7,672 nt of DNA from a virus (lineage: Duplodnaviria; Heunggongvirae; Uroviricota; Caudoviricetes), in IMG/VR virus record IMGVR_UViG_2693429605_000022, positions 1 to 7,672 of that record; one strand, 5' to 3'. Every line of letters begins with the position of its first letter. The first letter of the stretch is position 1. The notes under the pieces are model-generated. The model was not told where the DNA came from. It ran no database searches and saw nothing but the letters and a program-made list of their open reading frames with translations. Both the position numbers and the translations under genes were made by a program. Of this stretch, positions 1 through 7,672 are shown piece after piece.

Positions 1-52
1 CCGTTTGGCGATATCAAATCTGATGGCACGGTGAAAACGGCTCTCGAAAACC
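1..52. repeat. Inverted repeat: nt 1-52 are the exact reverse complement of 2000-2051 (3' end of the fiber constant region), and the repeat runs off the window edge
   Basis: Direct comparison: reverse complement of GGTTTTCGAGAGCCGTTTTCACCGTGCCATCAGATTTGATATCGCCAAACGG equals nt 1-52. Confidence 0.9.
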
Positions 53-525
53 AAAAAAAAAAGACAAATTCGGCATTACCCGTTGGTGTGCCTGTTCCGT
101 GGCCTTCCGCCACTCCGCCAACGGGGTGGCTAAAATGTAACGGAGCAGTATTTTCTTCTGAAAAGTACCCAAATCTGGCAAAGGCTTACCCAACATTAAA
201 ATTACCAGATTTACGCGGTGAATTTATTCGTGGCTGGGATGATGGGCGCGGGATTGACTCTGGTCGTAACTTATTATCTGCACAGAATGATGCAATTCAG
301 AATATTGTTGGTTCTTTTGGGCGTACCCAGCTTTTTAGAGACGTACTTAGTTCAGGGCCATTTAGTCAACATGGGCAAGTATTATCTACAGGTCTAAAGG
401 AAGCCGAAATTATTGAGGGTTATGGCGCTTATAACTGGACATTCGACGCATCTCGCTCAGTTCGCACAGCATCTGAAACCCGCTCCCGTAACATCGCCTT
501 TAATTATATTGTGAGGGCTGCATGA
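1..525 (+). CDS. Phage side tail fiber protein, 3' portion only (end of the shared constant region plus variable C-terminal cassette A); the 5' part lies upstream of the window
   Basis: Frame 1 is open from nt 1 ([17 protein letters not shown]...) to TGA at 523-525. Nt 1-52 are an exact inverted copy of 2000-2051, encoding the same peptide that ends the constant part of the fiber gene at 1545-2288. The stop overlaps the start of the downstream tfa (ATGA at 522-525), a typical fiber-tfa coupling. Confidence 0.7.
   Translation, partial: PFGDIKSDGTVKTALENQKKKTNSALPVGVPVPWPSATPPTGWLKCNGAVFSSEKYPNLAKAYPTLKLPDLRGEFIRGWDDGRGIDSGRNLLSAQNDAIQNIVGSFGRTQLFRDVLSSGPFSQHGQVLSTGLKEAEIIEGYGAYNWTFDASRSVRTASETRSRNIAFNYIVRAA
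41..66. other. Constant/variable junction of cassette A at the equivalent position; a possible degenerate crossover site in inverted orientation
   Basis: CTCTCGAAAACC AA AAAAAAAAGACA shares the constant-side half-site with site 1 in inverted orientation, but the other half is an A-tract and the central dinucleotide reads AA rather than the TT expected for an inverted partner. Confidence 0.3.
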
Positions 526-1127
526 TAAGTAAAGCTGTATTAAATAATGAACTCATCGCCACAAAGGCCGGAGACATTACCGTTTATAATTATGATGGTG
601 AAACACGGGAATATATTTCCACATCAACTGAATATCTTGCTGTGGGTGTTGGTATCCCGGCATGTTCCTGTTTAGATGCTCCTGGCTCATATAAAGCTGG
701 TTATGCAATTTGCCGTTCTGCAGATTTTAACTCATGGGAATATGTGCCAGACCATCGCGGTGAAATCGTCTATAGCACCGAAACAGGAGAATCAAAAGAA
801 ATCACAGTTCCGGGTGATTACCCTGAAAATACAACCACTATCGCCCCGTTAACGTCATACGATAAATGGGATGGTGAGAAATGGGTGACCGATACTGAGG
901 CACAGCATAACGCCGCAGTAGACGCGGCAGAAGTACGGCGCCAGTCACTGATTGATGCTGCTATGGCTTCCATTAGTCTGATTCAGCTGAAATTGCAGGC
1001 CGGGCGGAAGCTGACGCAGGCAGAAACAACCCGGCTTAACGCTGTGCTGGATTACATTGACGCGGTGACTGCAACAGATACCAGCACCGCGCCGGATGTC
1101 ATCTGGCCTGAACTACCGGAGGCGTAG
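522..1127 (+). CDS. tfa: Tail fiber assembly protein (Tfa chaperone, Mu U / P2 G / e14 TfaE-like), 201 aa, cognate to cassette A
   Basis: ATG at 522 is preceded by GAGGG (513-517) and overlaps the stop of the upstream fiber cassette. The N-terminus MISKAVLNNELIATKAGDITVYNYDGETREY and the C-terminal TSTAPDVIWPELP motif are characteristic of the Tfa family. Confidence 0.85.
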   Translation: MISKAVLNNELIATKAGDITVYNYDGETREYISTSTEYLAVGVGIPACSCLDAPGSYKAGYAICRSADFNSWEYVPDHRGEIVYSTETGESKEITVPGDYPENTTTIAPLTSYDKWDGEKWVTDTEAQHNAAVDAAEVRRQSLIDAAMASISLIQLKLQAGRKLTQAETTRLNAVLDYIDAVTATDTSTAPDVIWPELPEA

Positions 1128-1542
1128 GCCATTCAATATCTGGAGCACTGGAGGTATCAACCAGTTCCAGTGCGTCCAGATAATCCAGCCATAAATTATA
1201 TTGTTCCAGCTCGTAACCTTTCAGACGACCAATAGCAGCTTTGCCAGGCCACTGATGGGTATTGATGTAGGTATTGACTTCTGAAACCAAAGATATCTTT
1301 TTCATTTCAGCCGCCAGCATCTCATCCTCTTTTGAAGGCGGCGGGGAATTAATCCATATTGGCCGTCCTGAACTGTCAGCGCCAATTTCTTTCCCTTCTG
1401 GATGCAGCCCAAGAAATTGCTCATATGTTTCTCTGGTAATTTCAATAACATCATCAGGAAGCGTTCCCGCATCCTCATATTCTGGAAACAATTCTTGCAG
1501 ATAAAAACTTTTACTTGCGGGTGAAAAGAATACTGAGTTCAT
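1099..1542 (-). CDS. tfa: Tail fiber assembly protein (Tfa), 147 aa, cognate to fiber cassette B
   Basis: ATG (1542-1540) lies 2 nt after the TAA stop of the fiber gene at 1545-1547. The C-terminal motif TSSAPDIEWPTPP is the conserved Tfa C-terminus. Its 3' end overlaps the convergent tfa at 522-1127 by 29 nt. Confidence 0.8.
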   Translation of the reverse strand: MNSVFFSPASKSFYLQELFPEYEDAGTLPDDVIEITRETYEQFLGLHPEGKEIGADSSGRPIWINSPPPSKEDEMLAAEMKKISLVSEVNTYINTHQWPGKAAIGRLKGYELEQYNLWLDYLDALELVDTSSAPDIEWPTPPVVQAR

Positions 1543-1544
1543 TC

Positions 1545-2288
1545 TTACCGTCCAATGATTAACGCTGAGACGCTGGTATCTGAAGGAAAGGCTGCATTCA
1601 GTGGTTTGTCGACTTTGAACACAATCGTATTATTCCCCCTGACAGCGGCAAAAGAACAAACCGCCGTCGCGTATGAACCTGTAATATTACTGGATACACC
1701 ACCATAAGCTGTTGTTGATACCAGAGGGATAACGCCCAGCACCTTATTAGGAAATACAAAGGGCAATGTGGCTGTGGCAATATAAGACTTATTAGAACCT
1801 GTAATGGCATAAGCATTATCAGTCATTCCATTCATCGCCACTGGACCGCTTATACTTACAGTAACCATCTGAATGATTAGCCCGTCAGGTTGACGAATCA
1901 CAAAATTTCCATTGCCACCAGTAACCGTCCAGAAAGACATATCAGGGATTTGGTTTTCCCCGTTGCCCACATTTCGTTTTGCCGCTTCTCCCAAACCAAG
2001 GTTTTCGAGAGCCGTTTTCACCGTGCCATCAGATTTGATATCGCCAAACGGATTCTTGCGGCTTAACAGCAGCGCACGAAGCGCGGTAAGCAGCTGGTCA
2101 TGCCGCCCCTTCTCCAGGCTGGCACCGGATGCCTCCACCACGCTGCAGAGTTCTTCCTGCAACATGTCAAAGTAGTCATCATCCAGATCGGTGGCAGGTG
2201 TGCCGGTCTGGGGGTTACCACGGGTAAAACCGTTCTTACCCGCGCCGAACTTATCCTTCTGCGCGGTTTTCGTGTCTATACGATGCAT
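1545..2288 (-). CDS. Phage side tail fiber protein, complete (247 aa): N-terminal constant region (~96 aa, 2288-2000) joined at a hix-like site to variable cassette B (1999-1545)
   Basis: ATG at 2288-2286 lies 3 nt downstream of the stop of the upstream tail gene. The constant part ends ...[17 protein letters not shown], identical to the window start on the other strand. The variable part begins [21 protein letters not shown], closely similar to the start of cassette C (3992-4365). The protein is Gly/Thr/Asn/Ser-rich, typical of fiber tips. Confidence 0.8.
1986..2011. other. Candidate 26-bp hix/gix-like invertase crossover site 1, inside the fiber gene at the constant/variable junction
   Basis: TTCTCCCAAACC AA GGTTTTCGAGAG has imperfect dyad symmetry around a central AA and strongly resembles recalled hixL (TTCTTGAAAACC AA GGTTTTTGATAA). 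The identity with the window-start copy ends exactly at the centre. Confidence 0.6.
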
Positions 2289-2291
2289 GGA

Positions 2292-3971
<1,680 letters not shown>

Positions 3972-3991
3972 ATAAATCACCCTGAATAAAA

Positions 3992-4365
3992 TTACTCACC
4001 AACAGCCCACCAACTGTAATGCATAGATACCGTGTCACTGGTTGATGACGTTCTGTAAGCAGAATTAAAGCCGGTTAACGTAGGGCCTTCTGCAGTCATC
4101 ACGAACCCTCGCCCAGCGCCTAAAGGCGCACCGCCATCACCAGAATGGGTAAGAATGGCGCAGTCCGCTTTTTTAGGGAAAGGGATAGGAAATGTAATCC
4201 TCATTGTTTGCGTCGATAATTTCGGCATAGCCTCGCCTCGACCATATTGCAGAATTTTACCGTTGGGTAATTTCATCCATCCATCACCACTGGCAAAAGA
4301 GGCCATGTCCGGTATCTGATTTTCCCCTGTCCCTACATCCCGTTTTGCCGCTTCTCCCAAACCAA
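3992..4365 (-). other. Silent (start-less) alternative tail fiber C-terminal cassette C, beginning at a hix-like crossover site and ending at TAA 3994-3992
   Basis: Reading the minus strand from the site gives [24 protein letters not shown]..., matching the start of cassette B in frame. About 65 nt (4300-4365) are near-identical to 1935-1999. The extra N-terminal residues in the ORF-track entry 3992..4405 are read-through of the invertase upstream region. Confidence 0.6.
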
Positions 4366-4377
4366 CGTTTATGAAAA
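4352..4377. other. Candidate hix/gix-like crossover site 3, 55 bp upstream of the invertase start and at the start of cassette C
   Basis: TTCTCCCAAACC AA CGTTTATGAAAA has a left half and core identical to site 1 and a right half resembling the hix half-site. Position next to the invertase gene mirrors gixR-gin in Mu. Confidence 0.6.
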
Positions 4378-4431
4378 TGCAGAAATAACGAGCAAATGGC
4401 ATCATTCCTGCTTTTGTCAGGGAGATCTACC

Positions 4432-4986
4432 ATGCTTATTGGCTATGTACGTGTGTCAACAAATGACCAGAACACAGATCTACAACGTAATGCGCTGAAC
4501 TGTGCAGGATGCGAGCTGATTTTTGAAGACAAGATAAGCGGTACAAAGTCCGAAAGGCCTGGACTGAAAAAACTGCTCAGGACATTATCGGCAGGTGACA
4601 CTCTGGTTGTCTGGAAGCTGGATCGGCTGGGGCGTAGTATGCGGCATCTGGTCATTCTGGTTGAGGAGTTGCGCGAACGAGGCATCAACTTTCGTAGTCT
4701 GACGGATTCAATTGATACTAGTACCCCAATGGGGCGCTTTTTCTTTCATGTGATGGGTGCCCTGGCTGAAATGGAGCGTGAACTGATTGTTGAACGAACA
4801 AAAGCTGGACTGGAAGCTGCTCGCGCACAGGGACGAATTGGTGGACGTAAGCCAAAACTAACGGATGAGCAGTGGGCGCAGGCAGGGAGACTAATCGCTG
4901 CAGGAGAAACGCGTCAGCGCGTAGCATTAATTTATGATGTAGGAGTGTCAACACTATACCGAAAATTTCCTGTAGGCAGGGATTAG
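4432..4986 (+). CDS. pin: Site-specific DNA invertase, serine recombinase of the Pin/Gin/Cin/Hin family, 184 aa
   Basis: ATG at 4432 with AGGGAG 7 nt upstream. N-terminal MLIGYVRVSTNDQ carries the catalytic serine, the central block is VVWKLDRLGRSM...GINFRSLTDSIDTSTPMGRFFFHVMGALAEMERELI, and there is a C-terminal HTH. Near-identical in pattern to recalled Gin/Pin. The ORF-track start at 4396 is a non-coding extension. Confidence 0.93.
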   Translation: MLIGYVRVSTNDQNTDLQRNALNCAGCELIFEDKISGTKSERPGLKKLLRTLSAGDTLVVWKLDRLGRSMRHLVILVEELRERGINFRSLTDSIDTSTPMGRFFFHVMGALAEMERELIVERTKAGLEAARAQGRIGGRKPKLTDEQWAQAGRLIAAGETRQRVALIYDVGVSTLYRKFPVGRD

Positions 4987-5215
4987 ACATGATGCAGGCC
5001 ACCGGTAAAGATTGATGCTGGCAGACAGCACAACTTTACAGCCCAAACTGTCGAGCTCTTGGGAACTCAGACACTAGCCATATATCGGCTCTCTTAGAGC
5101 CGGTGAACCCTCTAAATCAATTCGCCCAGAATGATATTTTTGTACTGGGCAGACCATCACAATTCGGTAATAGACAGCATCAAAGGCAGCTAAATAAACC
5201 TTAGGCTTATCCACA

Positions 5216-6724
5216 TTACATATCTGCATCAGGAGCCAGTGGGTGTCGAAGATAATGTTCCTGAAGAACATCTGCAATTGATTTCAGATTGTCTTCCTTA
5301 ACAATGGAAAGAATGTCACGTCCATTTTTCCAGTCTAATGATATTTTTGTATTTCTTTGCTTCTGATGAAGCAGCAGCTCAAGTGCTTCAGGTTCAAAAT
5401 CTGATGAGGTCCAGAATGAAAAAGTCATTTTTCGGTCACGGTACACATGAATCTGACTGTAGAATTTTCTGATGCGTTGAACTCGTTCGAGCCACTTTTC
5501 GATCATTTCGACTGAAATTAGTCGCTTAACTTCATAGCCTTTACATTCGTAGCACTTAATTTCTGCTTCGCCTCTAAAACCAATCACATCTATTTCAGCC
5601 TTACCTGCCTCGGTACTGATTTGTTTATTCAAGTCCACAGTGCTGACATTTTGGGTTTTCAGTACGATGTGACCAACTAACATTTCAAACATTACGCCTC
5701 TTATATTGATTGCGGCGCCTTCAATCCTCGTAAGTCCTTTAAATAGTTCGTTGATTTTTTCTGGGTTTGCTGCCGCAATAGCACTGGCACGATTAAGAGT
5801 ATTTAATAAACTGGACAGTAGTGCTGAAATGTCTTGACCAAGTAGGTTAGATACTGTTGTAGCCATTACACCAGCTTGTTTCGCAAGGCGAAAGGCTTCT
5901 GGATCAAAACGTTCTGCAATCAGCATAGCTAGAAACGGGCGAGTATTTCGCATATTTCTGCATCGCTGTACTTTCGTGAGATAGGTTTGGATGCTTTTGC
6001 TATCTAAATCATTGTATATGACATCTGCAACAATGAAGCCATTACTCATTTCACCTTTTTGTACTGTTGCTAAAGGCATAATATATGACGGAGCACATAT
6101 GTCCCAATGGTGATGGCTAAATGAAGGCATATTCTGAGAGTTACGGACTTGGACCTTATTAAAGCTGCCAAGGCTATTGTGTTTAATCCAGTCAGCTACA
6201 CCTTTAATGAGAATATCTTCAACCAGCAATTGGTTTCGGACATGTTGGGTATCCGTTACCCCGTTAATATTATTTATGTAAGTAACAAGACAATCCCCCA
6301 AAACGACATCAACTTCCCTACGCAGAACTGAACCTTTAAGCAATTGCGCTTCAAGACGGCTTGACGCAATGTGTCCCTTCAGTTTGTCCGGACTCCCTGA
6401 AACCTTGCTAAAAAGATATGTCGGGATCGCCCCTTGATAAGGGTGGAAAGCGAAAAAGGTGTGAGCATAGACTGTTCTTGCATTTACATGACTTTCAAGC
6501 AATGCAATCCAATATCGACGAGAGTTATAGTCCTTTGTCAGATAGAGAAATGCTTCATTTTTGGGCAAAGAAAAATGAGTAAAACGTTGAACATCACCTC
6601 CAACGCGGGAGATTCGCTGTCTGGCGTTAACTTCTGTTAGGCCATTGGCTATCAGTTTTTCTCTTAAGGCAGATGAGGACATCGGCCCGTAGATATGTAG
6701 AAGTTGTTCTATGGATGGTTTCAT
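5216..6724 (-). CDS. Hypothetical protein, 502 aa, no family recognised; cargo-position gene between invertase and ssrA; possible N-terminal wHTH-like region and C-terminal PD-(D/E)xK-like nuclease motif (tentative)
   Basis: Long uninterrupted ORF in visibly AT-rich DNA (codons rich in AAA/AAT/ATT), convergent with pin. Candidate motif EIDVIGF...(E)AEIK/CYECKGY at about residues 377-395 fits hD...(D/E)xK spacing. No obvious Shine-Dalgarno before the ATG at 6724, so the exact start is uncertain (next Met is residue 15). Confidence 0.8.
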   Translation of the reverse strand: MKPSIEQLLHIYGPMSSSALREKLIANGLTEVNARQRISRVGGDVQRFTHFSLPKNEAFLYLTKDYNSRRYWIALLESHVNARTVYAHTFFAFHPYQGAIPTYLFSKVSGSPDKLKGHIASSRLEAQLLKGSVLRREVDVVLGDCLVTYINNINGVTDTQHVRNQLLVEDILIKGVADWIKHNSLGSFNKVQVRNSQNMPSFSHHHWDICAPSYIMPLATVQKGEMSNGFIVADVIYNDLDSKSIQTYLTKVQRCRNMRNTRPFLAMLIAERFDPEAFRLAKQAGVMATTVSNLLGQDISALLSSLLNTLNRASAIAAANPEKINELFKGLTRIEGAAINIRGVMFEMLVGHIVLKTQNVSTVDLNKQISTEAGKAEIDVIGFRGEAEIKCYECKGYEVKRLISVEMIEKWLERVQRIRKFYSQIHVYRDRKMTFSFWTSSDFEPEALELLLHQKQRNTKISLDWKNGRDILSIVKEDNLKSIADVLQEHYLRHPLAPDADM

Positions 6725-7111
6725 TGAGTGTCACACTGCGCTATTTATAATATAACTACATTAGCGGATGATGAGTTCAAGATTAGTAAGGTTATGTTTT
6801 AACATATTGATAAACATGAATAAAAAATGTGTGTGATGCTTGTTTTTTCAGTGTTTGTCACAGTGCGTTTTTTAATCGATGTTTTTGTGTTAAAAACGTC
6901 CTACTTAGTTAATGTAATTGCACGTTTTATTGCGATTTTTTTTGGCCGCTTAACTTAGTTGTACTTGTTTGCTAGAGAGGTTATTTAAACCAGCTTCGCT
7001 GCCATTGGTCAAATAGGTAATGGTGTTATCTGGTATCCGAAAGTACCAATGAAGGTAAAAAGGAATTCCATCCCATAACACGAAGAGGGATAGCGTGTTG
7101 CCGCAGGTAAT

Positions 7112-7142
7112 AAAAACGAAAAAGCCCGCATTAGCGGGCTTT
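7112..7142 (-). terminator. Rho-independent terminator on the minus strand, downstream of ssrA
   Basis: Minus-strand reading gives a GC-rich hairpin AAAGCCCGC-TAAT-GCGGGCTTT followed by TTTTTCGTTTTT. It lies about 130-160 nt past the mature tmRNA 3' end and upstream of the AT-rich leader of the 502-aa gene. Confidence 0.55.
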
Positions 7143-7270
7143 CATGTCACTTGGGAGCCGCGGCTCCTTTGCGTATCCTTTTTTGTCTCCTCACCGTCTG
7201 GTCGGTGTCCTGCTGAGACTGCTAACTTCCTGTTTTTATTGGTGTTGTCCTTACACCGTCCAATCATGAT

Positions 7271-7633
7271 TGGTGGAGCTGGCGGGAGTTGAACCCGCGT
7301 CCGAAATTCCTACATCCTCGGTACTACATGCTTAGTCAGTCTTTACATTCGCTTGCCAGCTGCGGACGGACACGCCACTAACAAACTAGCCTGATTAAGT
7401 TTTAACGCTTCAACCCCAGGCAGGGCTTCCACGCGATCTCTTTTGGGTTTGACCTCTCTTGATCCCCGTCCTAAGAGCGGAGGCTAGGGAGAGAGGGCTC
7501 TAAGCAGGTTATTAAGCTGCTAAAGCGTAGTTTTCGTCGTTTGCGACTATTTTTTGCGGCTTTTTACGAGGCCAACCGCCCCTCGGCATGCACCTTGGGT
7601 TTCGCAAATCCCGTCGAATCCAGAATCAGCCCC
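7271..7633 (-). ncRNA. ssrA: tmRNA (transfer-messenger RNA, SsrA), complete 363 nt, enterobacterial type
   Basis: Minus strand reads GGGGCTGATTCTGGATTCGACGGGATTTGCGAAACCCAAGGTGCATGCC ... GGTTCAACTCCCGCCAGCTCCACCA. The tag reading frame GCAAACGACGAAAACTACGCTTTAGCAGCTTAA encodes ANDENYALAA plus stop. It matches the E. coli tmRNA as I recall it. Confidence 0.97.
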
Positions 7634-7647
7634 AATGTGTAAAGGTA

Positions 7648-7656
7648 AGTATACCA
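7648..7656 (-). promoter_or_regulatory. Probable ssrA promoter extended -10 element (TGgTATACT on the minus strand), about 8 nt upstream of the mature tmRNA 5' end; -35 region at or beyond the window edge
   Basis: Minus strand reads ...CTGGTATACTTACCTTTACACATT|GGGGCTG. Position and sequence fit a sigma70 extended -10. Confidence 0.45.
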
Positions 7657-7672
7657 GATTTATGAGCGCCAT

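What the first reader, a model, noticed from the sequence alone, without database searches (positions are those of the whole stretch)
1..4986. Three-cassette tail-fiber variation module with hix-like sites in a non-canonical arrangement
There are three alternative fiber C-terminal cassettes (A 53-525 plus strand, B 1545-1999 minus, C 3992-4365 minus), each followed by its own tfa, and an intact pin-like invertase. A canonical Mu G or e14 P segment has two cassettes flanked by inverted sites. Here sites 1 (1986-2011) and 3 (4352-4377) share an identical half-site and core but are in direct orientation with both cassettes on the same strand, so Pin action between them would delete rather than invert. 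The only inverted partner in the window (41-66) has a degenerate outer half and a mismatched core. This points either to a multi-site Min-like shuffling system (p15B-type) whose other sites lie outside the window, or to a module scrambled by IS-associated rearrangement and now frozen.
Basis: partly seen in the sequence, partly recalled or inferred. Interest (0 to 1): 0.6.

Follow-up and report, generated by a model that had tools for sequence, protein, structure and literature searches.

The report
Ordinary Pin switch, broken draft scaffold
The three tail-fibre cassettes, the invertase and its sites are real, but they are parts of the well-known e14-type two-cassette switch, and the odd layout depends on an unresolved gap (N) and a scaffold end in a draft E. 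coli assembly.

Summary
But the window is the end of a draft E. coli scaffold (CYDP01000040.1).

- **Left end:** window nt 1 is scaffold position 2. The terminal 53 nt loop back into the scaffold's own constant fibre part.
- **IS3/tfaC junction:** window nt 3837, the exact IS3/tfaC junction that puts cassette C beside the A/B module, is an 'N' in the deposited record.
- **Damaged site:** site 41-66 carries a 16-nt patch found in no other sequence searched.

Relatives point to ordinary switches:

- Close relatives (CD45, 602687) carry the pieces at two separate loci. Each locus is a canonical two-site switch or a remnant of one.
- The same A/B segment is an exact 1,943-bp inversion isomer between natural isolates.
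- In 9 of 10 other contexts read, it has exactly two inverted sites and one invertase. The tenth is a decayed copy with one site.
- Sites 1 and 3 are identical to the K-12 e14 sites, and Pin is 93% identical to PinE.

A Min-like multi-site system is not supported. An IS3-linked rearrangement remains possible but unverified. Low interest.

The parts
1..52 (+). Terminal copy of the last 52 nt of the fibre constant part (Sc), up to the crossover site. This is the scaffold end.
   Evidence: It is a perfect inverted repeat with 2000-2051, or 53 nt counting the one extra scaffold base. It carries the T allele (AAATCTGATGG) of the scaffold's own Sc, not the G allele of full-length ssrA prophages or K-12 e14.
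41..66 (+). Site 2. Only the Sc-side half-site CTCTCGAAAACC is present.
   Evidence: Shown by the regex and alignment. Relatives have CTCTCGAAAACC TT GGTTTGGGAGAA at this junction (L008).
53..68 (+). Aberrant 16-mer AAAAAAAAAAGACAAA. It replaces the core plus the Sv-side half-site (TTGGTTTGGGAGAAGG).
   Evidence: It is unique to this scaffold. The replaced 16 nt equal the e14 P-segment inverted repeat quoted in PMC12529663.
69..525 (+). Cassette A (SvA), an alternative fibre C-terminus with a tail-collar domain.
   Evidence: Pfam Collar, E=1.7e-15. Positions 69-3836 are 100% identical to L003/L004.
522..1127 (+). tfaA, the tail-fibre assembly chaperone for cassette A.
   Evidence: Caudo_TAP, E=6e-32. 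The exact protein occurs in 823 database blocks, always next to the same partner in the places read.
1099..1542 (-). tfaB, the chaperone for cassette B. It converges on tfaA and overlaps it.
   Evidence: Caudo_TAP, E=6e-27.
1545..2288 (-). Fibre gene in its current state: constant part Sc (2012-2288) fused to cassette B (1545-1985).
   Evidence: ORF of 247 aa. PHROG tail-fibre families match. It is 100% identical to the fibre of CD45.
1986..2011 (-). Site 1 (pixL type), CTCTCGAAAACC TT GGTTTGGGAGAA on the coding strand.
   Evidence: It is identical to the K-12 e14 site in stfP/ycfK.
2292..2864 (-). ymfQ (Mu Gp48-like baseplate protein). Its 5' end is replaced by the IS end.
   Evidence: Phage_Mu_Gp48, E=9e-27. 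It is 190 aa here against 194 aa in intact prophages.
2852..3836 (+). First 985 nt of an IS3-family element (orfA 2924-3235, 5' part of orfB).
   Evidence: It is 100% identical to full-length IS3 copies in CD45/602687, at both the ssrA and e14 loci. OrfA matches HTH_Tnp_1.
3837..3837 (.). Unresolved base or gap: 'N' in the deposited scaffold, rendered 'A' in the window.
   Evidence: The homology breakpoint falls at exactly this base.
3838..3980 (-). 5' fragment (47 codons) of tfaC, the chaperone for cassette C.
   Evidence: It is 100% identical to tfaC at the e14 locus of CD45/602687, where the gene continues for 264 nt more.
3992..4365 (-). Cassette C (SvC), a gp53-like fibre C-terminus next to pin.
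   Evidence: Gp53-like_C, E=1.8e-13. Positions 3838-4422 are identical to the e14 locus of CD45.
4352..4377 (+). Site 3 (pixR type), TTCTCCCAAACC AA CGTTTATGAAAA.
   Evidence: It is identical to the K-12 e14 site next to pinE.
4432..4986 (+). pin, a Din-family serine DNA invertase of 184 aa.
   Evidence: Resolvase + HTH_7. The best solved relative is Gin (3UJ3, E=2e-92). It is 92.9% identical to K-12 PinE, 74% to Mu Gin and 100% to the L002 pin.
5216..6724 (-). Cargo ORF of 502 aa between pin and the attachment site.
   Evidence: No Pfam or PHROG match. There is a weak LmuA hit, E=0.007. The same gene sits in L001, L002, L006 and L007.
7271..7633 (-). ssrA (tmRNA), the chromosomal attachment locus of the prophage.
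   Evidence: ARAGORN and annotations in relatives.

Best explanation
The window is a draft scaffold. It runs through pieces of ordinary e14-type (Pin/pix) tail-fibre inversion switches in an E. coli defective Mu-like-tail prophage at ssrA.

**Piece A (1-3836).** This is a canonical two-cassette segment (SvA-tfaA / tfaB-SvB) with the constant fibre part, ymfQ and an IS3 element that truncated the prophage.

**Piece B (3838-7672).** This is the invertase-proximal end of such a switch: cassette C, pixR, pin, a cargo gene and ssrA.

**Why the layout looks non-canonical.** It rests on three features private to this assembly:
- the single-N join at 3837;
- the scaffold end that loops back into the same constant part, as expected if the sequenced culture held both orientations;
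- an unexplained 16-nt patch over the third site.

**How the real switch works.**
- Inferred from family membership: Pin dimers bind the two 26-bp sites. A Fis-bound enhancer in the 5' part of pin assembles the invertasome. All four strands are cut at the central TT/AA. One 180-degree rotation and religation invert the 1,943-bp segment.
- Shown here in relatives: the inversion places either SvB+tfaB or SvA+tfaA behind the constant fibre N-terminus.

This is not a three-cassette shuffling module.
For: - **Source and gap.** The source scaffold is identified. nt 3837 is N in the record, exactly at the IS3/tfaC homology break.
- **Scaffold end.** Window nt 1 is scaffold position 2. The terminal 53 nt equal the reverse complement of 2000-2052 and carry the allele of the scaffold's own Sc.
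- **Uniqueness of the join.** None of 5,426 complete genomes has IS3 followed by tfaC(5') within about 650 nt on that strand. None has the 53-68 patch (also 23-25, 36, 37).
- **Relatives.** Their chromosomal flank is 99.86% identical. They hold piece A at ssrA as a two-site switch beside pinE, and cassette C-pixR-pinE at e14/icd.
- **Natural inversion.** Exact isomer pairs exist: L003/L008 and L020/L023 (1,943 bp, 100% reverse complement, 100% flanks) and L002/L006 (1,898 bp).
- **Other contexts.** Nine of 10 other contexts of the exact TfaA have exactly two inverted sites 1,945 nt apart. All ten have a single resolvase-type gene, truncated in L016 and L018.
- **Assembly behaviour.** In 385 of 823 database blocks the segment sits only on contigs under 2 kb, so assemblers routinely break here.
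- **Family membership.** Sites 1 and 3 are identical to K-12 e14 sites, and Pin is 93% identical to PinE.
- **Literature.** Cultures hold both e14 orientations, about 30% inverted (PMC12529663; PMC4272514).
Against: - The N could be an ambiguous base, or a short gap in a true junction.
- Piece B stops at tfaC codon 48, which is not a repeat boundary in the closest relatives: the tfaC 3' part is single-copy there. That hints at a real discontinuity in this strain, for example an IS insertion.
- The orientation of IS3 relative to tfaC in the scaffold does not match the e14 locus of relatives. A trivial paired-end mis-link is therefore not obvious either.
- The 16-nt patch cannot be produced by mixing the four canonical junctions, so reads with it (or a gap-filling error) must exist.
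- No complete genome joins cassette C to this pin allele either. Homology switches inside a 72-nt shared stretch, 4351-4422.
- I had no reads and could not see the rest of the assembly.
Confidence: 0.68

Rival explanations
1. The scaffold order is real. In this strain an IS3-linked rearrangement (inversion or adjacent deletion) joined an inverted A/B-Sc-ymfQ module to a truncated tfaC-SvC-pixR-pin end, with the last ~270 nt of IS3 hidden in the gap. That leaves two directly repeated pix sites and an orphan cassette C. The array would be largely frozen, because wild-type invertases of this family act on inverted sites in cis.
For: - IS3 lies exactly at the join, and the same IS3 has truncated both prophages in relatives.
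- Piece B ends at a position that is not a repeat boundary in relatives.
- Tandem elements at ssrA do occur; L004 has a lambdoid prophage between ssrA and the remnant.
- An inversion with end points in tfaC and at IS3 in a tandem ancestor reproduces the scaffold order. This is my own derivation, i.e. inference.
Against: - The junction base is N.
- No complete genome shows the adjacency.
- It needs at least two extra events.
- It does not explain the Sc copy and the 16-nt patch at the left end.
- IS3 breaks at internal position 985, not at an IS end, in the sequence as given.
Confidence: 0.25
2. This is a genuine multi-site (Min/p15B-like, or EPEC P2-like three-repeat) shuffling system with three cassettes. 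Its remaining sites, and perhaps a second constant part, lie left of the window.
For: - Three cassettes carrying the LGLGE joint motif sit in 4.4 kb.
- A constant-part copy sits at the left end in inverted orientation to site 3.
- Three-repeat, four-variant systems exist in E. coli prophages (PMC4272514).
Against: - Site 2 lacks its core and one half-site.
- Sites 1 and 3 are directly repeated.
- Cassette C's chaperone gene is truncated.
- The adjacency crosses an N.
- All 10 other contexts of this A/B pair have two cassettes, and 9 of them have exactly two sites.
- The terminal Sc copy has the allele of the scaffold's own Sc.
Confidence: 0.03
3. A real inverted duplication places a full constant part (Sc, perhaps with ymfQ) on both sides of the A/B segment, so both fibres are expressed. 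One site has been deliberately or accidentally destroyed by the 16-nt replacement, giving a natural lock.
For: The inverted repeat of at least 53 nt reaches the scaffold end. The 16-nt replacement removes exactly the core and one half-site while keeping the reading frame (ALENQKKKTNSALPVG).
Against: - It is unique among all sequences searched.
- The position 53-68 nt from a scaffold end is where assembly errors concentrate (my own knowledge).
- No precedent appeared in the 10 contexts read.
Confidence: 0.04

Closest known systems
e14 P segment / PinE of E. coli K-12 (stfP-tfaP / tfaE-stfE, pix sites)
   Same: - The 26-bp sites are identical: CTCTCGAAAACC TT GGTTTGGGAGAA and TTCTCCCAAACC AA CGTTTATGAAAA.
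- Pin is 92.9% identical to PinE.
- The gene order is the same: ymfQ-fibre-tfa/tfa'-Sv'-pin-cargo.
- The segment size is similar: 1,943 bp between the cores here, against a 1,797-bp P segment in K-12.
(PMC12529663)
   Different: - The element sits at ssrA rather than icd.
- The cassettes differ in sequence (A/B), and C is gp53-like.
- The cargo is a 502-aa ORF instead of mcrA.
- In this scaffold the parts are not arranged as one switch.
Mu G segment / Gin, and more broadly P1 C/Cin and Salmonella H/Hin
   Same: - It is a serine invertase; Gin is 74% identical and is the best solved structure, 3UJ3.
- Each site is 26 bp with a 2-bp core.
- The constant fibre part is fused to alternative C-termini, each with its own chaperone.
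- The tail module is Mu-like (Gp45/46/47/48).

   Different: The gix sequence differs (TTATCCAAAACC TC GGTTTACAGGAA). The fibres are much shorter. The element is a defective prophage remnant, not a transposable phage.
Multiple-inversion systems: p15B Min (from memory) and the three-repeat P2-like prophage locus of EPEC E2348/69 (PMC4272514)
   Same: There are more than two fibre C-terminal cassettes and more than two site-like sequences near one invertase.
   Different: - Those systems have three or more functional sites, placed so that inversions fuse each cassette to the constant part, and several isomers coexist.
- Here one site is destroyed, the two intact ones are direct repeats across an N, and cassette C lies upstream of the constant part.

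Membership tests
Din-family (Hin/Gin/Cin/Pin) invertase switch, e14 P-segment type | A small serine recombinase with an N-terminal resolvase catalytic domain and a C-terminal HTH, closely related to Gin/Pin. | tested here: met
   Resolvase E=9e-52 and HTH_7 E=3e-14. Gin 3UJ3 E=2e-92 over residues 1-183. It is 92.9% identical to K-12 PinE, and the YVRVSTNDQ active-site motif is conserved.
Din-family (Hin/Gin/Cin/Pin) invertase switch, e14 P-segment type | Two 26-bp crossover sites with identical 2-bp core, in inverted orientation, flanking the invertible segment. | tested here: inconclusive
   In the window as given, the A/B segment has one intact site (1986-2011) and one half-site (41-66). The second intact site (4352-4377) is a direct repeat beyond an N. 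The 100%-identical segment in L003, L008, L020 and L023 has both sites, properly inverted. The window is a scaffold end plus a gap, so the test cannot be decisive for this strain.
Din-family (Hin/Gin/Cin/Pin) invertase switch, e14 P-segment type | A Fis-bound recombinational enhancer inside the 5' part of the invertase gene. | tested here: inconclusive
   The first 200 nt of pin are 98% identical to K-12 pinE, against 84% for the rest. One Fis-like 15-mer at nt 71-85 is shared with gin, but no pair about 48 bp apart was found by a simple consensus scan. Fis binding cannot be tested in silico.
Din-family (Hin/Gin/Cin/Pin) invertase switch, e14 P-segment type | Alternative fibre C-terminal cassettes, each with its own chaperone, convergently arranged behind one constant N-terminal part. 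| tested here: met
   SvA-tfaA (+) and tfaB-SvB (-) converge and overlap at 1099-1127. Sc lies at 2012-2288. The joint encodes LGLGE in all 117 related fibres that could be aligned at this point.
Din-family (Hin/Gin/Cin/Pin) invertase switch, e14 P-segment type | The segment is actually found in both orientations. | tested here: met
   Exact inversion isomers between isolates: L003/L008, L020/L023 and L002/L006. For the window's own strain, the only hint is the terminal Sc copy.
Min/p15B-type or three-repeat multiple-inversion system | Three or more functional crossover sites, in both orientations, within one contiguous region. | tested here: not met
   There are two intact sites, both in the same orientation. 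The third lacks its core and one half-site. The region is interrupted by an N.
Min/p15B-type or three-repeat multiple-inversion system | Every cassette can be brought behind the constant part by inversions. | tested here: not met
   Cassette C and site 3 lie upstream of Sc (beyond ymfQ and IS3) and on the same strand. Recombination between sites 1 and 3 would delete, not invert. tfaC is a 47-codon fragment.
Min/p15B-type or three-repeat multiple-inversion system | More than two isomers coexist in a population. | not testable with these tools
   This needs the reads of GCA_001283505.1 or new long reads.
IS3-family insertion sequence | A complete element with both ends and orfA/orfB with a programmed frameshift. 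| tested here: not met
   Only the first 985 nt are present, then N. OrfA matches HTH_Tnp_1. Full-length, 100%-identical copies exist in relatives.

The most novel reading that the evidence does not exclude
The scaffold order and the 16-nt patch are both real. In that case this strain carries a recently rearranged, IS3-linked array. A second fibre module sits beside an orphan cassette and the invertase. One pix site is cleanly replaced, forming a natural lock. Two intact sites are in direct repeat, giving a natural test of whether Pin will delete in vivo.
Probability: 0.25. Interest if true: 0.3.

Novelty: already known. Interest (0 to 1): 0.1.

Why it matters
It matters mainly as a caution. 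Invertible fibre segments, with their short inverted sites, several near-identical invertase loci and nearby IS copies, are places where short-read assemblies break and get stitched together. In 385 of 823 database blocks this segment is found only on contigs under 2 kb. 'Non-canonical' site arrangements in draft scaffolds must therefore be checked against Ns and contig ends before they are read as biology. The underlying biology is the textbook e14/Mu-type host-range switch. It has gained some fresh interest from reports that e14 P-segment inversion can block phage T2 adsorption (PMC12529663).

Tried and rejected
1. **A complete genome with the same layout.** Megablast of the whole window and of both junctions against 5,426 complete E. 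coli genomes found none.
2. **The odd 16-mer elsewhere.** I checked 120 fibre cluster representatives, an exact-protein look-up, exact DNA scans of GTDB genomes and IMG/VR, and all fetched loci. It is absent everywhere. I also tested whether it is a complement, reverse or IUPAC-collapse of the canonical 16-mer; it is not.
3. **A repeat boundary at tfaC codon 48.** I tested whether the tfaC breakpoint is a repeat boundary in relatives, which would explain the contig break. It is not; the 3' part is single-copy there.
4. **A paired-end mis-link via the e14 IS3-tfaC junction of relatives.** The orientations do not fit, so I rejected this as a sufficient explanation.
5. **A Fis-site consensus scan for the enhancer.** Inconclusive.
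6. **Literature look-up of the assembly accession.** Nothing was found.
7. **Pin-mediated exchange between the e14 and ssrA prophages as the origin of the SvC-pin junction.** This is possible, because the homology switch lies within 4351-4422, which contains the site. It is not distinguishable from ordinary mosaicism or misassembly.

Full report
**What is in the window**

Read left to right, the window contains:
- 1-52: a copy of the last 52 nt of a tail-fibre constant part (Sc).
- 53-525 (+): cassette A, with a Collar domain.
- 522-1127 (+): tfaA.
- 1099-1542 (-): tfaB.
- 1545-2288 (-): a complete 247-aa fibre gene, made of Sc (2012-2288) fused to cassette B.
- 2292-2864 (-): ymfQ, Mu Gp48-like.
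- 2852-3836 (+): the first 985 nt of an IS3-family element.
- 3838-3980 (-): a 47-codon 5' fragment of a third chaperone gene, tfaC.
- 3992-4365 (-): cassette C, gp53-like.
- 4432-4986 (+): pin, with Resolvase + HTH_7 domains.
- 5216-6724 (-): a 502-aa ORF with no family match.
- 7271-7633 (-): ssrA.

- 1986-2011, TTCTCCCAAACC AA GGTTTTCGAGAG.
- 4352-4377, TTCTCCCAAACC AA CGTTTATGAAAA. This and the previous site are in the same orientation.
- 41-66, which keeps only CTCTCGAAAACC.

**Where the window comes from**

A junction-specific ORF led to one record: scaffold CYDP01000040.1 of the draft assembly GCA_001283505.1 (E. coli, 31.7 kb). The window matches it at 7671 of 7672 positions. Three facts about the record change the picture.

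1. **The N at 3837.** The single difference is window nt 3837, 'A' in the window and 'N' in the deposited sequence (ctctgNgccataaac). This base is the exact point where 100% identity to IS3 ends (3836) and 100% identity to tfaC begins (3838). The only link between cassette C/pin and the A/B-Sc-ymfQ module is thus an unresolved join, not read-through sequence.
2. **The left end.** Window nt 1 is scaffold position 2. With the one extra base, the terminal 53 nt are the perfect reverse complement of 2000-2052. They carry the T allele (AAATCTGATGG) of the scaffold's own Sc. Full-length ssrA prophages and K-12 e14 have G at that position. The scaffold therefore ends by running back into the same constant part it already contains.
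3. **The 16-nt patch.** The 16 nt at 53-68 (AAAAAAAAAAGACAAA) sit exactly where every relative has TTGGTTTGGGAGAAGG, i.e. the 2-bp core, the cassette-side half-site and two more bases. That is the same 16-nt repeat that PMC12529663 gives for the e14 P segment. The patch was found nowhere else:
   - not in 5,426 complete E. coli genomes (best 90.8% over nt 1-140);
   - not in the 120 best fibre clusters; the 117 that could be aligned at this joint all encode ...LGLGEGS... or a one-residue variant of it;
   - the exact 174-aa product is on this one contig only;
   - exact DNA scans of GTDB genomes and IMG/VR gave nothing.

**What relatives show**

The chromosomal flank of the scaffold is 99.86% identical to strain CD45. 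CD45, 602687 and PS1Thumoskin9 carry window 69-3836 at 100% identity. There it forms a canonical remnant next to ssrA: ssrA, three small ORFs, pinE, site, [SvA tfaA tfaB SvB], site, Sc, ymfQ, then a full IS3 and a truncated ypjA.

The same strains carry window 3838-4440 at 99.8% identity. CD45 and 602687, the two I read, have it at a different locus, e14 at icd: a truncated tail gene, IS3 (opposite orientation), full tfaC, SvC, site, pinE, mcrA.

Full-length versions of the ssrA prophage (L001, L002, L006, L007) have the order ymfQ-fibre-tfa-tfa'-Sv'-pin-502aa-ssrA, with two sites.

No complete genome has IS3 followed by the tfaC 5' part, even allowing about 650 nt between them. None joins cassette C to this particular pin allele. 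The homology switch there lies within 4351-4422, a 72-nt stretch shared by both loci that contains the site.

**Evidence that the switch works and is two-sited**

- L003 and L008 differ by a precise inversion. The 1,943 bp between the two cores are 100% reverse complements, with 100% identical 800-nt flanks.
- The same holds for L020/L023, two assemblies of 5,150,576 and 5,150,578 bp, and for L002/L006 (1,898 bp).
- Of ten further contexts of the exact TfaA protein, nine have exactly two inverted sites 1,945 nt apart. All ten have a single resolvase-type gene, truncated in L016 and L018, behind P2-like, Mu-like or another type of baseplate. The tenth context is a decayed copy with one site.
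- In 385 of 823 database blocks this protein is found only on contigs under 2 kb. Draft assemblies habitually break at these sites.
- Published work shows that clonal K-12 cultures hold both e14 orientations, about 30% inverted, and that several Pin paralogues act in trans (PMC4272514; PMC12529663). A mixed culture would supply Sc|SvA reads as well as Sc|SvB reads, which fits a scaffold that has Sc at both ends of the segment.

**Mechanism**

Sites 1 and 3 are letter-for-letter the K-12 e14 sites. Pin is 92.9% identical to PinE and 74% to Mu Gin, and its best solved relative is Gin (3UJ3, E=2e-92).

By family knowledge (Hin; PMC3798978):
- Dimers bind two 26-bp sites.
- A Fis-bound enhancer near one site, inside the invertase gene, assembles the invertasome.
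- The strands are cut at the central 2 bp, and one subunit rotation inverts the segment.
- The wild-type enzyme is restricted to inversion between sites on the same molecule.

The enhancer itself could not be verified. The first 200 nt of pin are 98% identical to pinE, against 84% for the rest, but a consensus scan for paired Fis sites was inconclusive.

**What remains open**

I cannot prove that the join at 3837 is wrong.
- Piece B stops at a point that is not a repeat boundary in relatives.
- The IS3 orientation does not fit a simple mis-link through the relatives' e14 junction.
- An IS3-linked rearrangement private to this strain therefore remains possible; I give it about 0.25.
- Even then, the array would be a scrambled remnant: an orphan cassette C, a truncated chaperone gene, two direct-repeat sites and one dead site. 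It would not be a Min-like shuffling system.

The 16-nt patch is unexplained. It cannot arise from mixing the four canonical junctions, and it lies 53-68 nt from a scaffold end.

**Verdict**

The components are a known, ordinary e14-type Pin switch at ssrA. The 'non-canonical three-cassette arrangement' is not established by the sequence and is most likely a product of draft assembly. Interest is low.

Noticed in passing
window 5216-6724 (-): This 502-aa ORF has no Pfam or PHROG match and only a weak PADLOC hit to LmuA (E=0.007, aa 368-485). It occupies the slot between pin and the attachment site. In other strains that slot holds McrA, a LEM-3-like GIY-YIG protein, a restriction-modification pair, Avs2 or an AAA ATPase. 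It is therefore a candidate anti-phage cargo gene.
   Followed up: partly
L014-L023, window 522-1127: The exact TfaA protein and the same A/B cassette pair sit behind at least three different tail backbones. These are P2-like (Tail_P2_I, 432-506-aa fibres), Mu-like (Gp48) and a Phage_Wedge1/Sheath_initiator type. The joint always encodes LGLGE, so the crossover site doubles as a universal splice point for cassette exchange.
   Followed up: partly
(database-wide), window 69-1985: In 385 of 823 database blocks this TfaA is carried only on contigs under 2 kb. Many cluster members are 'partial' fibre proteins on contigs of about 1.9 kb. The invertible segment routinely falls out as its own contig in short-read assemblies.
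   Followed up: partly
L020 vs L023; L003 vs L008; L002 vs L006: Pairs of near-identical genomes carry the segment as exact inversion isomers, with 100% reverse complement between the cores and 100% identical flanks. One pair comprises two assemblies of 5,150,576 and 5,150,578 bp.
   Followed up: yes
window 4432-4631 vs 4632-4971: The first 200 nt of pin are 98% identical to K-12 pinE, while the rest is 84%. The 72 nt from the site into the pin upstream region (4351-4422) are identical between the e14 and ssrA prophage loci. This region is either a conserved regulatory or enhancer block, or a recombination mosaic boundary.
   Followed up: partly
window 7119-7304; L004 6198-6384: A partial copy of the ssrA 3' end lies beyond a lambdoid prophage in strain PS1Thumoskin9. 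Elements therefore stack in tandem at ssrA, and the boundary of homology between different ssrA islands falls near window 7119.
   Followed up: no
L018 (UGFL01000003.1): This is a decayed copy of the same A/B segment, with only one recognisable crossover site, a 31-aa invertase fragment and broken ymfQ and fibre genes. It is an example of a genuinely frozen remnant.
   Followed up: no
window 3837: The window shows 'A' where the public record has 'N'. This creates an apparent stop codon (TGA) that ends the transposase ORF at 3837, and an apparent fused C-terminus (…EFMAQRSC) on the truncated tfaC ORF. Both ORF ends are by-products of that substitution.
   Followed up: yes
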